Shown here in pieces: positions 428-53,970 of a stretch of 64,000 bases of DNA (position 1 is the stretch's first letter; each line of letters begins with the position of its first letter). The translations under genes were made by a program, and so were the position numbers. The notes beneath the pieces were generated by a model, which was given only the letters and a program-made list of their open reading frames with translations, ran no database searches and was not told where the DNA came from. This stretch comes from Podarcis liolepis (taxonomy: Eukaryota): NCBI GenBank assembly GCA_965112155.1, contig OZ218099.1; one strand, written 5' to 3'.

Positions 428-540
428 GTCCAGGCTTGGCATTCGTGGTGTACCCACAAGCCATGACAATGCTTCCTCTTTCTCCTTTCTGGTCTTTCCT
501 TTTTTTCTTCATGCTGTTGACTCTTGGCCTGGACAGTCAG
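428..540 (+). CDS. SLC6A7: SLC6A7 (Na+/Cl- dependent proline transporter PROT) internal coding exon, (G)[37 protein letters not shown]
   Basis: ttctag| acceptor at 427 and |gtaaga donor at 541; 113 bp; classic SLC6 GPGLAF..YP and LGLDSQ motifs. Confidence 0.96.
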
Positions 541-646
541 GTAAGAGTGTACTCTGCTGTGAGGAAGGACTTGAACTATATGGCCTCAAGCGAATGGTGC
601 TTATGGCTTACAGTACAAGAGAGCATCTGTTATTATCTGTGTGCAG

Positions 647-778
647 TTTGCCTTTCTAGAGACCATTGTTACTGCGGTGACAGATGAGTTCCCATATTAC
701 CTGCGGCCAAAGAAGGCTTTTTTCTCAGGCGTCGTTTGTATTGTGATGTTCCTGATGGGGCTCATCCTCACAACAGAG
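647..778 (+). CDS. SLC6A7: SLC6A7 coding exon, [44 protein letters not shown]
   Basis: gtgcag| ... |gtaagc; 132 bp; phase 0 joins the previous exon. Confidence 0.96.
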
Positions 779-1298
779 GTAAGCAAAATGGACAGTCAAA
801 GACTGCAGCCGCCAGACCTTTCCGTTGATCATTTAAGTTGAGGATTTACAGGGGCAATTGATGTGTTCTCCCTCTTTCCTCTCTCTGTGCCCTCCCTAAA
901 TGTTCTAGGGGTTCCCCAAACCCTCTGGAGCAGATTTGGGGAGGGCATAGGGACACACAAGGAAACAAGAGGGGGATGTCCTGTTGTGCAATCAGAAATC
1001 TTTGTGCTGAAGGGACTCAGTAGAATTCCACCTGTAATTTGAGCTGTGATTCAGAAAGCTAATCATAGTGTTTTCTGTGCCCTGATAGAATGAGCCCATG
1101 AAATTCCTAGAGTGACTTTTTTGGTATGAGACACCCCCCCACCCCCACCCCCGCCCATTCATACTTCCTAAATATTCAGGTTATTAAAATGCTGGTGCTG
1201 GCCTGTAGAACTGGATGTATTGACACAAGTAAGCTCACTGAGTTGACAAGCCCACGTCTTGATAGAGGCTTAGACCATTCACTGCTTCTTCTCCCTAG

Positions 1299-1398
1299 GG
1301 CGGGATGTATTGGCTGGTGCTGCTGGATGACTATAGTGCTGGATTTGGACTCATGGTAGTGGTCATTACCACCTGCTTGGTGGTGACACGTGTCTATG
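1299..1398 (+). CDS. SLC6A7: SLC6A7 coding exon, GGMYWLVLLDDYSAGFGLMVVVITTCLVVTRVY(G)
   Basis: ccctag| ... |gtaaga; 100 bp; GGMYW..LLDDYS is characteristic of PROT TM10. Confidence 0.96.
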
Positions 1399-1960
1399 GT
1401 AAGACCAGATACACTGATAGTGTAGACATTCAATTCTGAATTGCTGAGTATGTGTTGAGATTTTTAAAGTGACATTGGTAAATACAAAGAGATATATGCT
1501 GGCTTGTGTGGGGTAAGTAAGACTGCCAATAAGCTATGCAACATCTCAAGATGCATGTGGCAGTGGGTAAAATAATAACTTAGAATTGTACCAGGAGGTG
1601 GTGGTGGTTGTTACTACAACTAAAAGTCTCAAAACCACTAATATATAATAAATGCAAAAAATACAGTACATATAAATAAGTTTTAACATTTAACATATTG
1701 TTTGTTTTGTGGGTAAGTCACACATCTTTATGTACTATTAAAAATTGCTTCTCTGGAAGTCAGTTGAACTGTGTTCGATGGAGTATACTCCCGGATAGCC
1801 TCAGAGAGCCATCCTTTGCATTATTACTTGGGGCCAAGCCACATTAACCATAGTGGGGCTTACTTCTGAGTGAACTTGCATAGGGTTGTGGCGTTAATGA
1901 TTTAGTGGAAAAGAGCTGATTTAACATCCCATTTCTTACACATCATTTTGTTCTCTGCAG

Positions 1961-2061
1961 GCATGAAGAGATTCTGTCGTGACATTCATATGATGCTGGG
2001 TTTCAAGCCAGGGATATACTTCAAAGCCTGTTGGTTGTTCCTGTCTCCAGTGACAATGATG
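1961..2061 (+). CDS. SLC6A7: SLC6A7 coding exon, (G)MKRFCRDIHMMLGFKPGIYFKACWLFLSPVTMM
   Basis: ctgcag| ... |gtaaat; 101 bp; phase-1 entry matches the previous exon; not in the ORF track. Confidence 0.96.
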
Positions 2062-2574
2062 GTAAATATGCTCCAATATCCACAGCTGGACAATACCCTC
2101 ATCAAAACCATCTAAAATGTCACAAGAGAGTGGGAAGCTTCTCAAATGGAAACTACAGACTGATTAAAGGCTTGACCTGTGCCTAGAAAGAACACATCCA
2201 AATGGTTTTCTGCTTGTCCTGCACGTTCTAGGCATGGGTCTGATCACTTTTGTATTTGCCCCGCTGCTATGTGGAACAAATAGTGCTAGTGCTATGTGGA
2301 ACAAATAGCAATCTGCAGAAAATCCAATTGCCATTTGTTCTGATTCAGCGCTGCAGATTTTGGCGGAGGTATGGATAAACCTTCAGTCTCTGCCAGGTGG
2401 TGGTTTTGAATCATTTCCCCCAGCTCATCTCATTCTCCCCTGGTCTGTTAGCAGGGTCTTGTCCTACACCTCCTGAGATTAAAAGTTCATCTGTAGGACA
2501 GCACTCCCTACAGCTGACTCAAAATGGAAGGGGAAATGCCTCGTGCAATTCTATGATGACACTCTTTGTTTCAG

Positions 2575-2745
2575 GCTCTGCTGGTGTACAGCATCATCAA
2601 GTATGAACCATCAGAGTATAATGGATCCTATCGTTTTCCATTTTGGGCTGAGATTCTGGGCATCCTGATGGGAATCATCTCCTGCCTGATGATCCCCACG
2701 GGGATGGTTTTTGCTGTGCTCCATGAGGAAGGAACACTCTGGCAG
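2575..2745 (+). CDS. SLC6A7: SLC6A7 coding exon, ALLVYSIIKYEPSEYNGSYRFPFWAEILGILMGIISCLMIPTGMVFAVLHEEGTLWQ
   Basis: tttcag| ... |gtaagc; 171 bp; TM11-EL6-TM12. Confidence 0.96.
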
Positions 2746-4156: not shown

Positions 4157-4369
4157 AGAATCCAGCAAGCTAGCAGGCCAACCATGGACTGGGGTCCTTC
4201 CCTGGAGGAGAACAGAACTGGCATGTATGTGGCTACTCTGGCAGGCAGCCAGTCACCTAAACCTTTGATGGTCCATATGAGGAAATATGGAGGGATAACC
4301 AGCTACGAGAATATAGCCTTTCAGGTAGATAAAGAGATTGAAGAGGATGAAGAAGAGTCCATGATGTGA
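4157..4369 (+). CDS. SLC6A7: SLC6A7 terminal coding exon, RIQQASRPTMDWGPSLEENRTGMYVATLAGSQSPKPLMVHMRKYGGITSYENIAFQVDKEIEEDEEESMM*
   Basis: ttgcag| acceptor at 4156; TGA at 4367-4369; the cytoplasmic tail ending EEESMM matches PROT as recalled. Confidence 0.97.
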   Translation, partial: RIQQASRPTMDWGPSLEENRTGMYVATLAGSQSPKPLMVHMRKYGGITSYENIAFQVDKEIEEDEEESMM

Positions 4370-9209: not shown

Positions 9210-9348
9210 TTAGAATGGTAAAGTTGGAAGTGACCAGGAGGGCCATCTAGTCCAACCCCCTGCAATGCAGGAAACTTTATCCCAATGTGGGACTCGAACC
9301 CACCACCCTGAGATAAAGAGTCTCATGCTCTACCAACAGAGCTATCCC
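9210..9348 (-). mobile_element. tRNA-Lys-derived SINE with CR1 tail (Squam2 / P.s.1-like)
   Basis: Minus strand GGGATAGCTCTGTTGGTAGAGCATGAGACTCTT..GGGTTCGAGTCCCAC (A/B boxes) followed by a CR1 3' end. Confidence 0.75.
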
Positions 9349-29077: not shown

Positions 29078-29081
29078 TCAG
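29078..29081 (-). CDS. CAMK2A: CAMK2A terminal exon coding part: last base of the His codon plus TGA
   Basis: ttccttttgtgtttttcag|C TGA completes ...SVLPH*; downstream TTGCTGGAATTC resembles the start of the mammalian UTR as recalled. Confidence 0.88.
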
Positions 29082-31057: not shown

Positions 31058-32752
31058 ACTGCAAATAAATTTGTTTAATCCCCAGTGGGGTGTGTTCTTG
31101 TACACCACCTTGAACACTTTTTTATTTAAGCAGAGAGGCAATTCATAAAAGCAATGAATGAATGACTCTAACTTCAGTAGTAGCTTTCAACAGAATGAGT
31201 AACCACTATCACGCTGGCCACTAAGGGCTAGCCGTGGAGTCTCATCAAACCTGGACAAAAGATACTCTTCTCTGCTATCAGGGATGCCCATATGGAATCT
31301 TCTTGCACTCACATCAGAAACAGATGATCAGACACACGTGAAGTATCTGATGCTGGACTGTATCATTCCAGAGTGCAGGTGGGGGCTTGTGTGTTTGAAT
31401 GTTCCCGCCTATTAAAAAACAAACAGTGTATACCCTTAACTTCATTTCTGCACCTTCGCACCTTGTTATCAAGAAGTTTAGAGAGTGATAAAATAACACA
31501 GTTTTTCCCTCTTCACTTTCAACTCTACCTTATGGATAATAAAGTTATTTTCATTTCTTTTGATGATTTAAACTGGCAGTGCATTAGTTAACATGAAATA
31601 CGAGGATGCATCTTTCTTTACTGAGAAAACACCTATGACAGTCATAACATCACAGTAAGAAAATGAATGGGGATGGGGAGAAGAACGTGAGAGCCCCAAT
31701 TCTGAATGACATCACTAAAAGTTGAAACTTCTAAACCAATATAAACCGGGTTGGGTTGGTATTTTGCAATTAATTTGGCTTGCTCTGGCATAATAAATAT
31801 CTCCTGTCATGTGACCAGATTCAAACATCATGTTCATAAATAATTTGACATGGTGAAATTACCATGTGAAAAAGTGACCTGTGAACTGGGCCTGAGAGAG
31901 AGAGCGAGAGAGAGAGAGAATGTTAAACTTGCTCTAACTCCAAGAACCAGTCATTAGACACTTCTATTCCATGCATGTCATTGCCACCAATAAAATACCA
32001 TTCTGAGCCTACCACATGGGGGGCGGGGTATTCTCCATTCTGGTAGCATGCATGTGGATCTTAGCAAATCATCAAACAATAATGTGTGACTGTAACTGGT
32101 GGGAGGTTAAACTAAATATGCATGAATTGCCTTCAAATCTCTTGTAATTTAATGCCATGAATGCATCCTTGCATAAAGGCAAATGAATAATCCCCGTCTG
32201 GGGTTCCCAATGTGGTGCCTGTGGGCACTACAGCACTCTCAGGCATCTGTCAAGGCCCCCTCCAATTTTAAGTTCTGTTTTAAAATTGTGGTTTGGGGCT
32301 TTTTGTTGTCTTCGGGGGAGGTACCTGCGTTGGGGGGGGTTTGCATATTTTTTTTATTTAAAAAATCTGTTTTATTTGTTGGGAGTGGTGGTGTAGGTGT
32401 TTGATTTTGAGAGACCGGGGGGGGGGGTCCTGAGCACTGTCAGTTTTTCTTTAATCTGCCCACAACAGATTTACAAAAGCGCCCCCAGGCCCAACAAGGT
32501 GGGGGACCACTGACATAGATAAAAGTTCTTTCAGGAAGGTTTTGACCTAGCTACAAATATTGTTAAGCCATGCATATGTGTGTTACATTGGGCCTTCGCT
32601 GCTGTTCTTTTCCTTCTACTGCCTTGCTTATACTCTCACCTTTAATTTACACTTATCTACTCCTGTTTGCACTGTGGAAACAGAATATTCAGTTTTCAAT
32701 GGTATGACAAGAGTGGCTTTGAGAGGGATCACCAAGGCCTGGGGCTGACTTA

Positions 32753-33010
<258 letters not shown>

Positions 33011-34019: not shown

Positions 34020-34214
<195 letters not shown>

Positions 34215-36191: not shown

Positions 36192-36267
36192 GTGTAGGAC
36201 TCAAAGTCCCCATTGCTTATTGCTTCAATCAGCTGCTCCGTCACCTTAATGATTTCCTGTTTTCGTA
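36192..36267 (-). CDS. CAMK2A: CAMK2A hub exon, (V)[24 protein letters not shown](T)
   Basis: caacag| ... |gtgag; 76 bp. Confidence 0.96.
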
Positions 36268-39200: not shown

Positions 39201-39513
39201 ACTAAGGTTCTTCCCAAAGACTGGTTTAAAATGGTGACAGTGAAACTACTTCCATAGAGACTCGGTGGAGAAGAGGAATGAAAAAGTCAGTGTTTGCCAA
39301 GTTGTTAGAAAAATCACAACACACTGCAAGCTGAACCGAGGGAGAGCAAGGGATTTAAGTATCTAAGGCAGCCTTTTGCAAACTTGAGTCTCTAGATATT
39401 GCTGAACTTCAACTCCCATTAGCCCCTGCATGCATAGCAAATGGCCAAAGACAATGGCAAAGGCGAGGCTGGGATTGAAAGGTGCATGACTGTTGAGTCC
39501 TTCGCATGCTGCC

Positions 39514-39620
39514 CTGCTAGCCCTATGCCACTTCGCGAGGCTGGAATCTGATCTGAATGATTCACCCGGCAAATCATTCAGATCTGATCCCAGCCTCGCC
39601 ATGTGGTGCAGGGCTGGCAG
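39514..39620. repeat. 49-bp inverted repeat with a 9-nt loop, probably MITE-internal
   Basis: Arms 39514-39562 and 39572-39620; 41/49 complementary by manual alignment. Confidence 0.85.
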
Positions 39621-40214
39621 GAGGTGTGAAGAGCCAAATGTGCAGTGCTCCCCAGAAAAATGTGCCCAGGGTCATCGCCCTGGCAGCGCCCCCGTCCAAC
39701 GCTATGTCCCTGAGTAGGTGTGGTGCAGTGGTATGTACAAATGAGGTCTAATTGCCTTGCTAATTCACAAATGGTAGTCACAACAGCGGTATTATTCTGT
39801 AGGAGAATTTTGCGCATTGCACATAAATTGATACAGGACCACTTATAATGAAATTTGAGTCTTTTAGACTCATCACAGTAAATTTCTGCATACAGTTGAT
39901 TTTTCTTTTACTTCACAAAATAAGTTTTAGGTTGCAAATTCACAACAGAATAGTTTTGTGACAGCTGAACAGTTTTACTGACCAATCCTGGTCAGTGGGC
40001 TATAGAGTAAGGATGAAGTTTTCATTCATTGAAAAATGGATGAAAAATAAAACTCTAAGCTTCAAATTTCATTTTAGTATTTGAACAGCTCTACCTATAT
40101 AGGCTGACAGCAAGAATTGCCTAGGGGTCCATAATCTCACAACTCATGCTTACTGGAAGTCATTGACTAAAATGGGCTTCCTTTTACCTCTTCCGCCACA
40201 GTCTTATACTATAC

Positions 40215-41319: not shown

Positions 41320-41352
41320 CATTAACTGAACGCTGGAACTGGACTTTCTTTT
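41320..41352 (-). CDS. CAMK2A: CAMK2A 33-nt alternative exon, KRKSSSSVQLM (alphaB nuclear localisation insert)
   Basis: long pyrimidine tract + ttccag| ... |gtgag; frame-preserving, phase 0. Confidence 0.95.
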
Positions 41353-43480
41353 CTGGAAAAACAAGGAGAAGAGATAGGACAAGAAGAGACACAGAGTGAG
41401 AAAGAAGGAAGAGAGCAGAACATGGGACACAGTGGGTCCTAGGACACCTTTTTGCGATCCTACTAGAAAGGTGAAGAGTTTGTGAATAAATCTGATGCTT
41501 AATGCCAAAGAGTAGTCAAAACTCTCACAATGCAAACCATGCCAATCTAACTTTCCAGCACAATTAACAAATCCATCAGCCTTGTCCACTATTCTATGTT
41601 TGGACCCACAGATGTCTGCATCCCTATGAACCTTAATATCCTGACCCAGGGCAGGGCTCCACCTTAACATCTCTCCTGCCATTTTCTAATCCAATCCAAC
41701 AAAAGATTTCCAAGCTGAAGAGGAATCATGTTTTGAGATCTGTAAATACTAGTCAACAAGCTAAAACTGCCACACCAACTTAACTTGTGGACACAACAAT
41801 ATCTGAATACAGCCCTCCGCAAATGAAATGCTATACTTTTCCAACCCTCCTTGCCACTGTGACTTTGCATCATTCTACTTGTGGCAGCAAAAAGCTGGAG
41901 ACATTAAATACTGGTATTGTTCACTTTGAATCCTAAAAGAATAAAGCCAGAAGAAATCCAAATGATCCTCTACTGCACCGAATGAGGATGGGCATTTTAC
42001 ATCTATAGCATCTCTGAAAGCCTTCATAGACAGTTACACTACTGCTGAACAGTCTTGTTATTCACTAATCTAAATCTGCATTCTCACTGTGATCGAAATT
42101 TGTTGCTTCTCATCCTGTCTTCAGTGATCACTCTTCTAAGGTCATGTCTGCACATCATTTTGGCATGATAATTCAGGTACCAGTAAAGCACTTAAAAGTC
42201 TTCACTATCCACACTAAGATGCAAGCATCTTGCCATTTGCAATGGTTATGAGATAATATCAGTGTTTGTTTGGAGTAGCCCAGTTATAATGCTGTACATT
42301 GCACCAAATCAGAGTGGGGGTTGTTTAGGTGGGATGTGAATACCGATATCAGAGCTAGGAGAGGCTTGCTAGGGCATGAAAAATACAAATGAAGTAGATG
42401 ATGGTCAAACTTTGAGCCAAGTGACGCCCTTTTTCTAGATTTGTTCAAGTGCAGCAACAAGTATCTGGGTGAGAAGAAACAGAACAGCGTGCAGGAATGT
42501 GCTATCACATAGCTTTCACCAGGGATTTCTTTTAAAAGTGTGATAAAACCTTGAGAGAATGACTGAAACCACAGGCAAACTGCAATGTTTACATGGACTA
42601 TGACTGCAGTTTTTAGGAGTGGAAAGTCTGGTTCATATAATCCCAGCATTGTACCAAAGGTGGTAAATCAACACAATGCCAAATGGTGGAAGTGAGTTTA
42701 TTTGCATTGCAGACATGACCTAAGAAGCTCCTTCTATGCCTCAAAGTAGTACTGAACAGCTCACAGAAGAAATCCTGCAAATAATTCAAGATTTAAGACT
42801 TTTGTCTTTTGATTCTTGATGAGCTTCTCTCAACACAGCGCTTTAATGTACATCAAAAGAGAGGCACATCATGTCAGATTCCTAATTATCACTCAAAAGA
42901 GTCTTGAATAAGTTCTCTATTTGCTATCCCACAAATCCATTCTTGGCTTCTTCTTGCCTTCTCCACACTACTTCTTTCTGTCCTGTAGATGAAACTTGGA
43001 AAATGGATCTAGATGAAATCCAGAAAATGCGGCATCTAAACAGGCTCACCATAGGCATAGTGTAGAAGCCTCCATCCTAATCTTCTTCACTATTATTTAT
43101 TTAAAAAGGTATCAAAACTGCATATATCTGGTGAGATGAAATGCGTTCTATGAGCTACAGTAGAATGAGCCCATTGGCACTTGGCGATTCTGACTGCTTT
43201 ATTTCATCATATGATATCCTCAGCTAGCCCTCTACAGCTTCTTCTCCAAAGCCAACCAAAAGACAGAGAACAGACTCTACTACAACTCTTAGATTTGGTA
43301 CTTAAGCTATATATGATGGAGGTAGCTAGGCTCAGATGCATGGTGGCTCCACTGAGAACATACCAAGAACCAAGAACTGTCTAGGAAACCTTACTGGACG
43401 GTAACTGTAGAAGCAATTGACGCAACATGACGCAACACAAAAGTGGTGACCTTATTAAAGTAGGACGTACATACAATAAA

Positions 43481-43590
43481 AGGATGCAACACAGGGCAGT
43501 GACTTTATTAATTTAGGATGTAACAGGATGTGACATGGGGCAGTGATTGCATTAATTAACAATGTAACAGGATGTGACACAGGGCAGTGA
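43481..43590 (+). repeat. 44-bp-period minisatellite (~2.5 copies plus a degenerate upstream copy)
   Basis: AGGATG(C/T)(A/G)ACA..GGGCAGTGA units start at 43481, 43525 and 43569. Confidence 0.8.
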
Positions 43591-45575
43591 ACTTGTTGAG
43601 TATCCACTGGTTACAAGAGGGGCAAAGCCTCTTCTCTCAATAAACTATTTGTGAAAGGGGTCCGTTGTCCTTTCTACTCTCCATGGATAGCATGTTTGCA
43701 GAAGTGGCACATAAATATCTACTTTTTCACTAATAGGTGTAGCCAAAGTAGGGGGTAATATCCTTTCTGCAATGGGGGGGGGGTGTTGCCATTACCATGT
43801 TACTTCAAACACAGTAGGTAGGTTCTTTCTGTTAACACGAACTGGTTAAACCAGAGAGTTTCATCAGAAAGGCAAGCTAACCATGAGATCGTGAACTAGA
43901 CCCCACAATTTGTGGTGCCAACAGCCATCTCCTTCTACAGAGGGGGATATCAAAACCAAACAAGGTGAGGGGGGAGGAGAATCTGCAGCCAAGCCATTTG
44001 ACAATTAAGCCAAGTGGGATTCCACTGCTGGAATTGAGGTCTGTCCATTTGGGGTATTTCTGAAAGGAAATGGGAGTGAGATGACAGTGCCAGGAGTGGC
44101 TGTTAGCATAGGAAATAGGCAGATGGGCAAGCGTAAGTGTATCTCTTGGCCAAGGAATACTGTTGTCAGAATCTTCTTCATTCTTTGAAGAAACCTTTGC
44201 CACATCCTCAGATAGCCACCAAGTCTCAATTTGGCACCGTGGAAAGAGATGCCAGGCAGCTGTCCAGAATACTCCAGTTTGGTTTCCAGAAAAGAAAATC
44301 ATTATAATATCAGCACAAAGCCATTCTTTCAAACGCTAGCATTCAAACTTCACAAATATTTCAGAGCTGGAATGGATGATGTCACTGGAATGAGCAAACC
44401 TGTTCATCCATTAATCTGCATCTCTGCCAAATCAATGAACCAGGTTTCAAGGCATGATATGAGTGCTGCAAACCCAAAGGGATCAATGTAGAATCAAAAG
44501 CCTGGAGAAGGCGAGTGTGTTTGTGTGTGTGTGTTGGGGAGGATTTCTTGTGTCCCTAGTTCTGTTTTCAGTTTTAACCCCTTTCTCCCCTCCTTTTGGG
44601 TTGATGACAGAAACATCTATATTTTCTCATTCCTCCCAGGTTTTCAGTTGACCAGAAGATAGTTCATCAGGCCACCGTGGGAGACTCAGACTCAAATAAA
44701 ACAGCAATGACCTATCTGAAAAGAAAAGCCACTGCTCAGAGGCTCAGTCTAAACTGATGTCCACAGGAGCCAATCAAAGAAAGAGTCATCCTTGCTCCCA
44801 CTCCCCATCCCATCTCCCTCTCTTCCATATTAAGTGTCTTTCAGTTTGTCTTACCTGTCACAGCCCCCTTTACAGGATTAAGAAATGCCCTAGAGCCAAT
44901 TCAAATTGTTGGGCAGGGGGATGTGATAAAGCTCTCTTGGCCGATCCATAACACCTCTAAATTCACTCAGGTGTTGATTTGTTTGGAAGTGCTTCCGTGT
45001 CACGATATTCCTTCACACAGAGATAACAAGCCAGGAAGAAGGCCTGCCTGATTTCTGAGGCACACTGTGGCATAATTCACTCCCACACAAGGACCACAGG
45101 AGCATCAACCTCCAGATTTCTGAATCAGTTGGACTTGTGAGTTGCTGTCCTCTTGTGGGGCTGTTTCACCATGGACTCCAAACATTTGGATTGGCTCTAT
45201 TTCCCCGAAATGACCGTAGCATAGTAACAGTAAGACGGCAGGAGAAAGGCACAAGCTTTTTTTCTCCTCTTTATGAAAAGAAAGCAGGAATGGGAAGAGA
45301 TTATGAGGATATGAGTTAGCCAAGCAAATTGAACATGAGTCAAGGCATCCATTACTCTAAGCAGCAAACTTTGCTTAGGTAAAGGTATTTGTTTTTCCTT
45401 TTTCGCTTTCAGAATGTGGAAATGTATTTCATGATGAGAAGAGGATGATGCAAGAGATCCTTAACACTAAGGGCCTGGGCCACGCAGGGACCCATGACCA
45501 CACAGTCCACCAGCCCAAACATTCCTGCCTTCTTGAGTACAGGCAAGCTGGTGGCTCTATGAGCCCAGGACTTAC

Positions 45576-45616
45576 CTTGACGCCATCGTTCTTCTTGTTG
45601 CCACCACTTTTCCCTC
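45576..45616 (-). CDS. CAMK2A: CAMK2A linker exon, (G)GKSGGNKKNDGVK
   Basis: ccacag| ... |gtaag; 41 bp; alpha-specific linker. Confidence 0.96.
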
Positions 45617-45689
45617 CTGTGGAGAAAAAGTACCACGTCAAGAGGAACAGGCACGGTATCAGGGTCAGCACACTGAGAACCAGCAACAT
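45576..45689 (-). CDS. CAMK2A: Alternative first coding exon of the alphaKAP-type isoform, MLLVLSVLTLIPCLFLLTWYFFST-GGKSGGNKKNDGVK
   Basis: ATG at 45689-45687 is in frame with the linker exon; 24 uncharged, mostly hydrophobic residues; resembles the rodent alphaKAP N-terminus as recalled (MLL..L..LVPCL.LLTLYFLSSTGGKSGG). Confidence 0.85.
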
Positions 45690-45832: not shown

Positions 45833-46343
45833 CAGCTGGATTACTGGGATCCTTCCCCGTGAAAAGCCACAGCCACTTGTACTCTCGGACTCCCAAATCT
45901 TTGAAGGAACCAGCAGAATGGCCAGCGACGGAGATAGAAGGGAGCTGACAGAGCATTCTCTGACACTTGTTTCCTTCCTGAGAGGGCTCAAGGATCCTTC
46001 AACATGGCTTACAGGGATTCAGTCCTGCCCTGTGCCATCACCCTCACCTCCTGGGCTTGCCTGCCCTGTTTCGCGGTCTCAGATATGAACGCTAATGGCT
46101 CAACTATGATAAGATCAGCGTGCAATTGCCTGCCTGCCTGCCTTTCTCACACTCTGCCTCTTTCGCTAATTTTAGATCCCCATGCTGGTGGGGTCATGTG
46201 CTACAATTATGACATCCTGACAGCTGCAGCCCACATTTTGACAATGATGAAAAGCAGACATCTTCCCCCATGCCTCCCTCCCCCATGACTATCCCAGAGC
46301 CAGCCTCGTCTCCTGGGACTGCAGCCCACTCATAATCCCGCCC
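45833..46343 (-). promoter_or_regulatory. Candidate muscle-type internal promoter/enhancer for alphaKAP
   Basis: MEF2 consensus CTAATTTTAG 46166-46175; E-boxes CAGCTG 45833-45838 and 46221-46226; GC box 46337-46343; all upstream of the alphaKAP ATG. Confidence 0.45.
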
Positions 46344-50140: not shown

Positions 50141-50183
50141 CAGAAAAATTCCGGGTTGCTAGCATTGTAGTGAGGATTGCACC
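50141..50183 (-). CDS. CAMK2A: CAMK2A exon, GAILTTMLATRNFS(G) (CaM-binding region, Thr305/306)
   Basis: tttcag| ... |gtagg; 43 bp. Confidence 0.96.
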
Positions 50184-52720: not shown

Positions 52721-53970
52721 CTGTAAGGCAAAAAGAAAGTTGCTCAGAAATGGAAGGGAATAGAAAATAGAGAGGTTTATCCCCCCCCCAAAACACACAC
52801 ACCCTGCCTTTAAAAAAAAAAAAAAGCAACCTGGCTTCTTTTACTTGTGATATTCCTTGGTTTGCATGAGCCCATGTGTCCTAATCAGAACTTGTTCCCT
52901 GCCCACTGTAACCAGGTAAGATCAGTAAAATCTTTTGGGGAGCCTGCATTTGGAGGCTCCAGCCTTTGCGCAGTGGGTTAGCCTAGATAACTCTCAGCTT
53001 CTTGCACCTTTGTGCAGGATGGTTATTCCATGGCTACACATACAAGTCTGAACTCTGCACCATCTCTGTGTCTCTTGAATGTGCACTCATATATTAGGCA
53101 TAGGTTTGAATTCTCCAAGCAGTAGAAAATAAAACTTTAATGGTTTGTGCAAACTAGTTTTCCTGCTTATTCATTTGTTCCTTCTTTTGCTACACCAGAG
53201 ATTCTGGAGATGGTTCATTAGGTTGATGGTGGCCTCCTCAGTCTGATTCTCTTATGCACTGGTGGCTCAGACTATTGTCCTTTTCGAGCACAACGGACAT
53301 TCAAAGCAAAGACCTGAATATAAATGTTCCAGCCCCTTGGGAAGGAAACCCATAGTTTACCAATCTATGTAATTGTGGCAGCAACACTTGCTAGACAGAA
53401 GTACACAAGTAAAAAATGTTCCAGGAAACTGAGGATATTGCTTTAATGATAAGCAGTGGGGTTTGGGGAAATCAGCCTATATAGGCTCCCTGATTCTGAG
53501 TGGATGAGAGCTAGAGGTTTTTTTTTAAATTAAAAATAAACTTGTCAAAGTCCTCTGTAACAGTTTTATTCCAAGAGCACAGCTGAGTTACAATACGGGC
53601 TGTGGAAATAGTAAAAGTGCATCTCAAACTGTTATTTCTATAGATTAGAATGACTAGGTCTGGTGGAAAACAGGAAAAGTGATTTTAAAAATTATGTGCT
53701 TTGCGCTCCTCTGAAGCTGTTTTTTTTTTTCCTGGGAGCCCGTCTTGATTGCTATAAGTGGACTGCATGAACACAGACACTTAATAAGTGCCATCAGCAA
53801 ATGGTTCAGTGTTTTTTTGGAGCCACATAACTAGTTGCCCATAATAAGCATATACCTATGGCATGTACCTCACGTGATACAATGCTTATTAATCAACATG
53901 TGAACAAATGATTACTCTGCTGTGCGTGTGCTACATAACTGAAATATATTTTGTCCCACTGAGACCCTCA

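What the first reader, a model, noticed from the sequence alone, without database searches (positions are those of the whole stretch)
45576..45689. Gene within a gene: an alphaKAP-type membrane anchor encoded by a CAMK2A splice acceptor
Seen: the 73 nt before the GGKSGG exon serve as branch point and pyrimidine tract (..TTGACGTGGTACTTTTTCTCCACAG) for the kinase mRNA. They also read in frame from ATG 45689 as MLLVLSVLTLIPCLFLLTWYFFST, an uncharged signal-anchor. Splicing onward gives a kinase-less protein of 199 aa with the NLS exon (188 aa without) that retains the whole hub domain. Established: rodent alphaKAP is made this way from an intronic promoter in muscle and tethers CaMKII holoenzymes to the sarcoplasmic reticulum. 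Inference: the system is conserved in squamates and so dates at least to the amniote ancestor. It is easily missed by annotation.
Basis: partly seen in the sequence, partly recalled or inferred. Interest (0 to 1): 0.75.

Follow-up and report, generated by a model that had tools for sequence, protein, structure and literature searches.

The report
Lizard αKAP: CaMKII's known membrane anchor
This lizard's CAMK2A kinase gene has a 73-base splice site that also reads as a membrane-anchor peptide, and likely makes the same kinase-less tethering protein (αKAP) long known from rodent muscle, so this is a real but already known system, seen here in frog-type and fish sequences too.

Summary
Observation confirmed. 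On the minus strand, ATG 45689 opens 24 uncharged, hydrophobic codons that run through the acceptor of the 41-nt CAMK2A linker exon (45616-45576). Splicing on gives 199 aa, or 188 aa without the NLS exon, with the whole hub domain and no kinase. The pattern occurs at 1 of 12 real acceptors of the gene. It is the orthologue of rodent αKAP: anchor 15/24 and remainder 159/163 identical to mouse isoform 3. (1) It is older than amniotes: a search with the hub alone returned spliced anchor-plus-hub proteins from frog-type contigs and a named teleost. (2) It is not unannotated: a UniRef protein matches the window's product at 187 of 187 residues. A MEF2/E-box-like cluster about 480-540 nt upstream is a candidate muscle promoter. 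No read-level evidence of transcription in the lizard was obtained. Side lead: an upstream ATG and splice donor could remove the anchor in frame. Verdict: real, already known, low interest.

The parts
45617..45689 (-). Dual-use 73 nt: branch point, pyrimidine tract and AG for the kinase mRNA, and the 24-codon hydrophobic anchor of αKAP
   Evidence: 24/24 identical to UniRef P0162 and 15/24 to mouse P0165
45576..45616 (-). 41-nt linker exon shared by kinase and αKAP; lysine-rich flank after the anchor (4 K, 1 D in 14 residues)
41320..41352 (-). 33-nt optional exon with the basic nuclear-localisation signal (alphaB-type; label recalled)
   Evidence: present in P0079, P0155, P0192 and absent from P0078, P0140, P0162
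40215..40263 (-). 49-nt linker exon
36192..36267 (-). 76-nt hub exon
34052..34146 (-). 95-nt hub exon
32754..32982 (-). 229-nt hub exon (Pfam CaMKII_AD positions 58-128)
29078..29081 (-). Start of the probable last exon: completes the final His codon, then the stop
   Evidence: the named lacertid kinase P0197 ends in the same His
46166..46226 (-). Candidate intronic muscle promoter or enhancer: MEF2-consensus site (46175-46166), CAGCTG E-box (46226-46221) and TGTCA sites; consensus motifs recalled, function inferred
   Evidence: 2 such MEF2/E-box pairs in 64 kb; run of 16-17 identical translated codons over the E-box in two unnamed squamate-type contigs
45833..45956 (-). Upstream ATG (45956) and strong donor after 45833: a 74-codon upstream ORF if unspliced, or a possible anchor-less first exon in frame with the 41-nt exon if spliced (speculative)
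50141..50183 (-). Last upstream kinase-mRNA exon (43 nt), whose donor pairs with the 45617 acceptor in the full-length kinase

Best explanation
This is the lizard orthologue of αKAP: the last 73 bases of a CAMK2A intron encode a 24-residue hydrophobic peptide in frame with the linker and hub exons, likely translated from a transcript started by a promoter inside that intron, giving a kinase-less subunit predicted to sit in the sarcoplasmic/endoplasmic reticulum membrane and tether active CaMKII holoenzymes there. Shown here: the frame, the exon chain, the 188/199-aa products, the intact hub, and the orthology. Inferred from rodents and general rules: (1) a MEF2/E-box element about 0.5 kb upstream drives muscle transcription; (2) the 73 nt stay in the first exon, so the same bases are a splice signal in the brain kinase mRNA and coding sequence in this one; (3) the uncharged helix with a lysine-rich C-flank inserts N-terminus-in-lumen, leaving the hub in the cytosol (positive-inside rule, recalled); (4) the hub co-assembles with kinase subunits of other isoforms; (5) the optional 33-nt exon adds a nuclear signal.
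For: Frame and lengths. Rarity: 1 of 12 real acceptors, 3 of 1335 pyrimidine-rich cases. The window's kinase exons are 351/351 identical to a CAMK2A named for Podarcis muralis and Zootoca vivipara. UniRef P0162 equals the window's 188-form at 187/187, and its tail maps to an acceptor at 31408; a second squamate-type record, P0168, is 181/187. Mouse isoform 3 (NP_001273738.1) has the same layout. A search with the hub exon alone, blind to the N-terminus, gave 6 spliced anchor-plus-hub proteins among the 22 proteins of at most 320 aa in the 120 listed, of 4525 hits. Two of these, from sequencing-run contigs, group with named frogs at 100/99; one is an NCBI isoform of the teleost Paramormyrops. 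Of 70 stored proteins with the linker exon preceded by something other than the kinase exon, 64 have the nearest Met 24-28 codons up and only 3 of those have a charged residue; 4 more have an internal Met, and 2 have no anchor (redundant, mostly found by similarity to the anchor). Random substitution keeps start, frame and lack of charge in 12% of trials at 63% amino-acid identity and 0.7% at 31%. Literature passages: αKAP comes from an alternative promoter, has the complete hub and is thought to target CaMKII to the SR (PMC5882894; PMC9913510).
Against: No read-level evidence that this lizard transcribes the segment. No spliced squamate form from a sequencing-run contig was found; the two squamate records are database gene models that could be projected from mouse. 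The ATG context is weak (C at -3, T at +4) and an upstream ATG at 45956 opens a 74-codon ORF. The NLS exon's acceptor also reads as a conserved hydrophobic stretch in lizard, birds and mammals, so hydrophobicity plus conservation can come from splicing constraint alone. No orthologous DNA was obtained, so no dN/dS. The MEF2/E-box pair is not unique in the window (2 pairs).
Confidence: 0.92

Rival explanations
1. The 73 nt are only a conserved splice acceptor in lizards; the anchor frame is a silent relic or a by-product of pyrimidine-rich sequence, and no αKAP is made in this species.
For: No reads and no spliced squamate contig were found. The neighbouring NLS-exon acceptor shows a conserved hydrophobic read-through with no fixed Met. 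Weak initiation context.
Against: The Met keeps a 24-28-codon distance from fish to mammals, with length changes in whole codons. The first 12 codons lie upstream of the pyrimidine tract yet stay hydrophobic. Squamate-type anchors vary in sequence but none of P0002-P0006, P0162 or P0168 has a stop or charge. Both mammal-type and frog-type spliced forms occur in sequencing-run contigs.
Confidence: 0.05
2. The peptide is made but is a cleaved signal peptide, or a short-lived targeting signal, rather than a permanent membrane anchor.
For: One source names the mouse isoform 'precursor'. The segment ends in small residues, as signal peptides do.
Against: There is no basic N-region, and the basic residues follow the helix (4 K, 1 D), which favours a cytosolic C-terminus. 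A hub exported to the lumen could not join cytosolic kinase, which the rodent literature reports (PMC9913510 passage). No signal-peptide predictor was run.
Confidence: 0.03

Closest known systems
Mouse/rat αKAP (CAMK2A isoform 3, NP_001273738.1; P0165)
   Same: Same gene, same position of the start codon before the 41-nt linker exon, no kinase domain, full hub, optional NLS exon; 159/163 identical after the anchor.
   Different: Lizard anchor is 24 rather than 25 residues and 15/24 identical. Promoter, tissue and localisation are shown in rodents (review passages only) and only inferred for the lizard.
UniRef100_A0A670IGQ0 (P0162), a lizard CAMK2A hub-only model
   Same: 187/187 identical to the window's NLS-less product.
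   Different: It uses another last exon (acceptor at 31408) and carries only a generic domain name, not αKAP. The organism name was cut off in the output.
Teleost and frog-type anchor-plus-hub proteins (P0155 Paramormyrops isoform X4; P0149, P0192; P0131, P0140)
   Same: Met 24-26 codons before the linker exon, uncharged hydrophobic segment with a central Pro, spliced to the hub.
   Different: Anchors diverge strongly from the lizard's. A Trp-Ala-x-Val-Pro core is shared by mammals and some teleosts but not by the lizard. Zebrafish αKAP is recalled from Francescatto et al. 2010 (PMID 20630945), of which only the title was seen.

Membership tests
αKAP (CAMK2A anchoring isoform) | Encoded by the CAMK2A gene | tested here: met
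   Window exons 351/351 identical to a named lacertid CAMK2A; hub exon 100% identical to snake CAMK2A records.
αKAP (CAMK2A anchoring isoform) | No kinase domain, complete association (hub) domain | tested here: met
   Conceptual product; the identical P0162 matches PF08332 over 1-128 of 128 and no kinase family.
αKAP (CAMK2A anchoring isoform) | Hydrophobic N-terminal segment from intron sequence directly before the linker exon, in frame | tested here: met
   15/24 identical to mouse.
αKAP (CAMK2A anchoring isoform) | Optional NLS exon giving two forms | tested here: met
   33-nt in-frame exon with AG/GT. Met at DNA level only; use in the lizard not shown.
αKAP (CAMK2A anchoring isoform) | Transcribed from an alternative promoter inside the gene | tested here: inconclusive
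   MEF2/E-box-like cluster, conserved in two squamate-type contigs; database gene models exist; no reads or start site obtained.
αKAP (CAMK2A anchoring isoform) | Expressed mainly in skeletal and cardiac muscle | not tested
   No tissue-resolved expression data were obtained.
αKAP (CAMK2A anchoring isoform) | Co-assembles with active CaMKII and targets it to the SR membrane | not testable with these tools
   Needs fractionation and co-immunoprecipitation; inferred from the near-identical hub and rodent reports.

The most novel reading that the evidence does not exclude
The same intronic promoter makes two kinase-less products, switched by one 216-nt intron (45832-45617). Retained, it gives membrane-anchored αKAP. 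Spliced from the donor after 45833 to the 45617 acceptor, it removes the anchor and joins a 41-codon exon from ATG 45956 in frame to the hub, giving an anchor-less hub subunit. The donor scores 9.0, third best in the 4.5-kb intron and above 9 of the 11 real donors scored. The ATG and frame are kept in five unnamed squamate-type contigs, although those were found as open frames. No spliced protein of this kind was seen.
Probability: 0.12. Interest if true: 0.5.

Novelty: already known. Interest (0 to 1): 0.2.

Why it matters
As a discovery it matters little: αKAP has been described since 1996 (reference lists) and this lizard product is already in UniRef. It is a clean example of one stretch of DNA constrained both as a splice acceptor and as a membrane helix. 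The frog-type and teleost forms indicate that this double use has lasted since the bony-vertebrate ancestor, so fish and frogs could serve as models for αKAP at the SR and neuromuscular junction. Practical point: CAMK2A counts in muscle RNA data from any vertebrate may report αKAP rather than kinase, as noted for mouse in PMC8155201 (passage). The anchor-removing splice, if real, would add a way to switch CaMKII between membrane and cytosol.

Tried and rejected
Whole-genome search: no genome is held for this window. Sequencing runs: no RNA holder listed; no run was laid on the stretch, so transcription, start site and strand stay open. Metagenome scan for orthologous DNA: 611 pattern matches, none confirmed, so no dN/dS and no DNA-level promoter alignment. 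Search for spliced squamate forms from sequencing-run contigs: 8 of 8 candidates were already-seen proteins; the 188-residue start of P0162 is not in the collection as an exact sequence. Profile search of 50% representatives gave 29 hits, diluted by intron read-through columns; it added fish-type read-through anchors P0183, P0184, P0186, P0187. Structure prediction was of mouse P0165, not the lizard protein, and was poor (mean pLDDT 55); it shows only a helix at 2-24 with block means 72 and 79, so little weight is put on it. The hub tree leaves fish rows unresolved and misplaces P0168 weakly; it is used only to place P0131 and P0140 with frogs. Sharks: the two shark records seen give no anchor with a start codon, so the age cannot be pushed to jawed vertebrates. 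Primary papers were not held. Nine library searches listed no paper on αKAP outside mammals, but most subscription papers are missing, so this is no proof of absence. Earlier scan notes: nothing. Rejected: 'gene within a gene' as a nested independent gene, since the frame and exons are shared; and an N-terminally extended anchor from ATG 45956 without splicing, since that frame stops after 74 codons in this genome.

Full report
Observation. The minus strand carries an ATG at 45689 whose frame runs for 24 codons through the AG at 45618-45617 and on into a 41-nt exon, 45616-45576. A splice-site scan recovered twelve CAMK2A exons from 62738 to 32754, all with AG/GT ends, and a probable last exon at 29081. 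Joined, they are 351/351 identical to a CAMK2A named for Podarcis muralis and Zootoca vivipara, so the window is a lacertid-type lizard gene. Starting at 45689 and splicing onward gives 199 aa, or 188 aa without the 33-nt exon.

Is it more than chance? Pyrimidine tracts tend to read as Phe, Leu and Ser, so I tested the pattern directly. A Met-started, open, uncharged, hydrophobic extension of 19-30 codons is found at 1 of the 12 real acceptors and at 3 of 1335 pyrimidine-rich YAG-by-phase cases in the window, this one included. The acceptor of the NLS exon is a useful control: it also reads as a hydrophobic stretch and is conserved in bird and mammal records, but its nearest Met is 106 codons away here and at other distances in those records. 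Hydrophobicity and conservation are therefore not enough on their own; the fixed start codon is the distinguishing feature.

Relatives. A search with the 40-residue read-through gave 37 hits of 43 candidates, all unspliced genomic read-throughs from unnamed contigs. A search with the hub exon alone is blind to the N-terminus. Among the best 120 of 4525 hits, 22 were at most 320 aa, and 6 of those were spliced anchor-plus-hub proteins: two mammal-type, two frog-type, one NCBI isoform of the teleost Paramormyrops and one fish-type UniRef record. The frog-type pair groups with named frogs at 100/99 in a hub tree of 26 rows. Cluster look-ups added mouse isoform 3, a fish-type spliced contig with the NLS exon (P0192), and two squamate-type UniRef records. 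One of these, P0162, equals the window's NLS-less product at 187/187 residues, and its tail maps to an acceptor at 31408. Over 70 stored proteins in which the linker exon is not preceded by the kinase exon, 64 have the nearest Met 24-28 codons upstream, 4 have an internal Met and 2 have no anchor; 3 of the 64 carry one charged residue. This set is redundant and mostly found by likeness to the anchor. Random substitution would keep start, frame and lack of charge in 12% of trials at 63% amino-acid identity and 0.7% at 31%. Mammal and teleost anchors share a Trp-Ala-x-Val-Pro core, which favours one origin. The system thus likely dates to the bony-vertebrate ancestor; sharks were not shown to have it.

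Mechanism. Shown: frame, exon chain, intact hub (PF08332 1-128 of 128 in the identical P0162) and orthology to mouse αKAP (anchor 15/24, remainder 159/163). Inferred: a promoter within the 4.5-kb intron starts a transcript that keeps the 73 nt in its first exon. A MEF2-consensus site at 46175-46166 and a CAGCTG E-box with TGTCA sites at 46226-46210 form a candidate muscle element (motifs recalled; 2 such MEF2/E-box pairs in the window). Two unnamed squamate-type contigs keep a run of 16-17 identical translated codons over the E-box. The helix has no charge and is followed by 4 Lys and 1 Asp in 14 residues, which by the positive-inside rule (recalled) leaves the hub in the cytosol, free to co-assemble with active kinase subunits. 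The branch-point-like pentamer at 45641 coincides with the Leu-Thr codons that are nearly invariant in the 13 aligned amniote-type sequences, a likely sign of the double constraint.

Against. I have no read-level evidence for the lizard. No spliced squamate form from a sequencing-run contig turned up, and the squamate records are gene models that may be projected. The initiation context is weak and an upstream ATG at 45956 opens a 74-codon ORF. No orthologous DNA was obtained. The structure model was of the mouse protein and of low confidence.

What is known. I saw passages only, not whole papers: PMC5882894 (alternative promoter, complete hub, SR targeting), PMC9913510 (muscle expression, heteromultimers), PMC4033055 and PMC7916148 (acetylcholine-receptor stability), PMC8155201 (αKAP transcripts highly abundant, confounding Camk2a primers). 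PMC8327911, PMC9816872, PMC10766190 and bioRxiv 10.1101/452797 gave only reference titles or nothing on αKAP. The primary papers were not held. That zebrafish αKAP is in print is my recollection of Francescatto et al. 2010, whose title alone I saw. Nine library searches listed no paper on reptile αKAP, which is weak evidence given the library's gaps; no supplements were opened.

Side lead. ATG 45956 and a donor after 45833 bound 124 nt, which matches the phase of the 41-nt exon. Splicing there would delete the anchor in frame. The donor scores 9.0, third in the intron; ATG and frame are kept in five squamate-type contigs, with ascertainment bias, and the translations of two mammal-type records are compatible with a donor at a similar distance (P0024, P0164; inference, no DNA). 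No such protein was seen; I give it 0.12.

Verdict. Real feature, correctly identified, orthologue of a known and already annotated isoform. Novelty: already known. Interest 0.2.

Noticed in passing
window 45956-45833 (minus): Upstream ATG and strong splice donor in phase with the 41-nt exon; could give an anchor-less hub protein. ATG and frame are kept in five squamate-type contigs.
   Followed up: partly
window, acceptor of the 33-nt NLS exon (minus): The intron end reads as an open hydrophobic stretch, conserved in bird and mammal records; several gene models and one sequencing-run contig (P0048, P0188-P0191) start hub-only proteins there. The Met position is not conserved, so it is probably splicing constraint or intron retention, but a second anchor form is not excluded.
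   Followed up: partly
window 32753, 31408 and 29081 (minus): Three possible ends after the 229-nt exon: read-through gives Gln-stop, the 29081 acceptor gives His-stop, the 31408 acceptor gives a 15-residue tail used by P0162.
   Followed up: partly
window 428-2745 (plus), probably also 4157-4324: 3' exons of a sodium:neurotransmitter symporter (PF00209, 5 of 5 exons tested), tail to tail with CAMK2A; likely SLC6A7 by recalled mammalian gene order.
   Followed up: partly
window 9287-9344 (minus): Partial Rfam tRNA match (37 bits, model 8-63 of 71); likely a tRNA-derived repeat or pseudogene.
   Followed up: no
window 53530-53585: Second MEF2-consensus plus CAGCTG pair, in an upstream CAMK2A intron; possible further muscle enhancer or chance.
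   Followed up: no
window 43477-43608 and 39513-39621: A 44-nt tandem repeat of about 3 copies and a 50-nt inverted repeat with a 9-nt spacer, both intronic.
   Followed up: no
P0148, P0173: Gene models for Coilia grayii and Camelus ferus splice the anchor into the middle of the full kinase; likely mis-merged isoforms.
   Followed up: no
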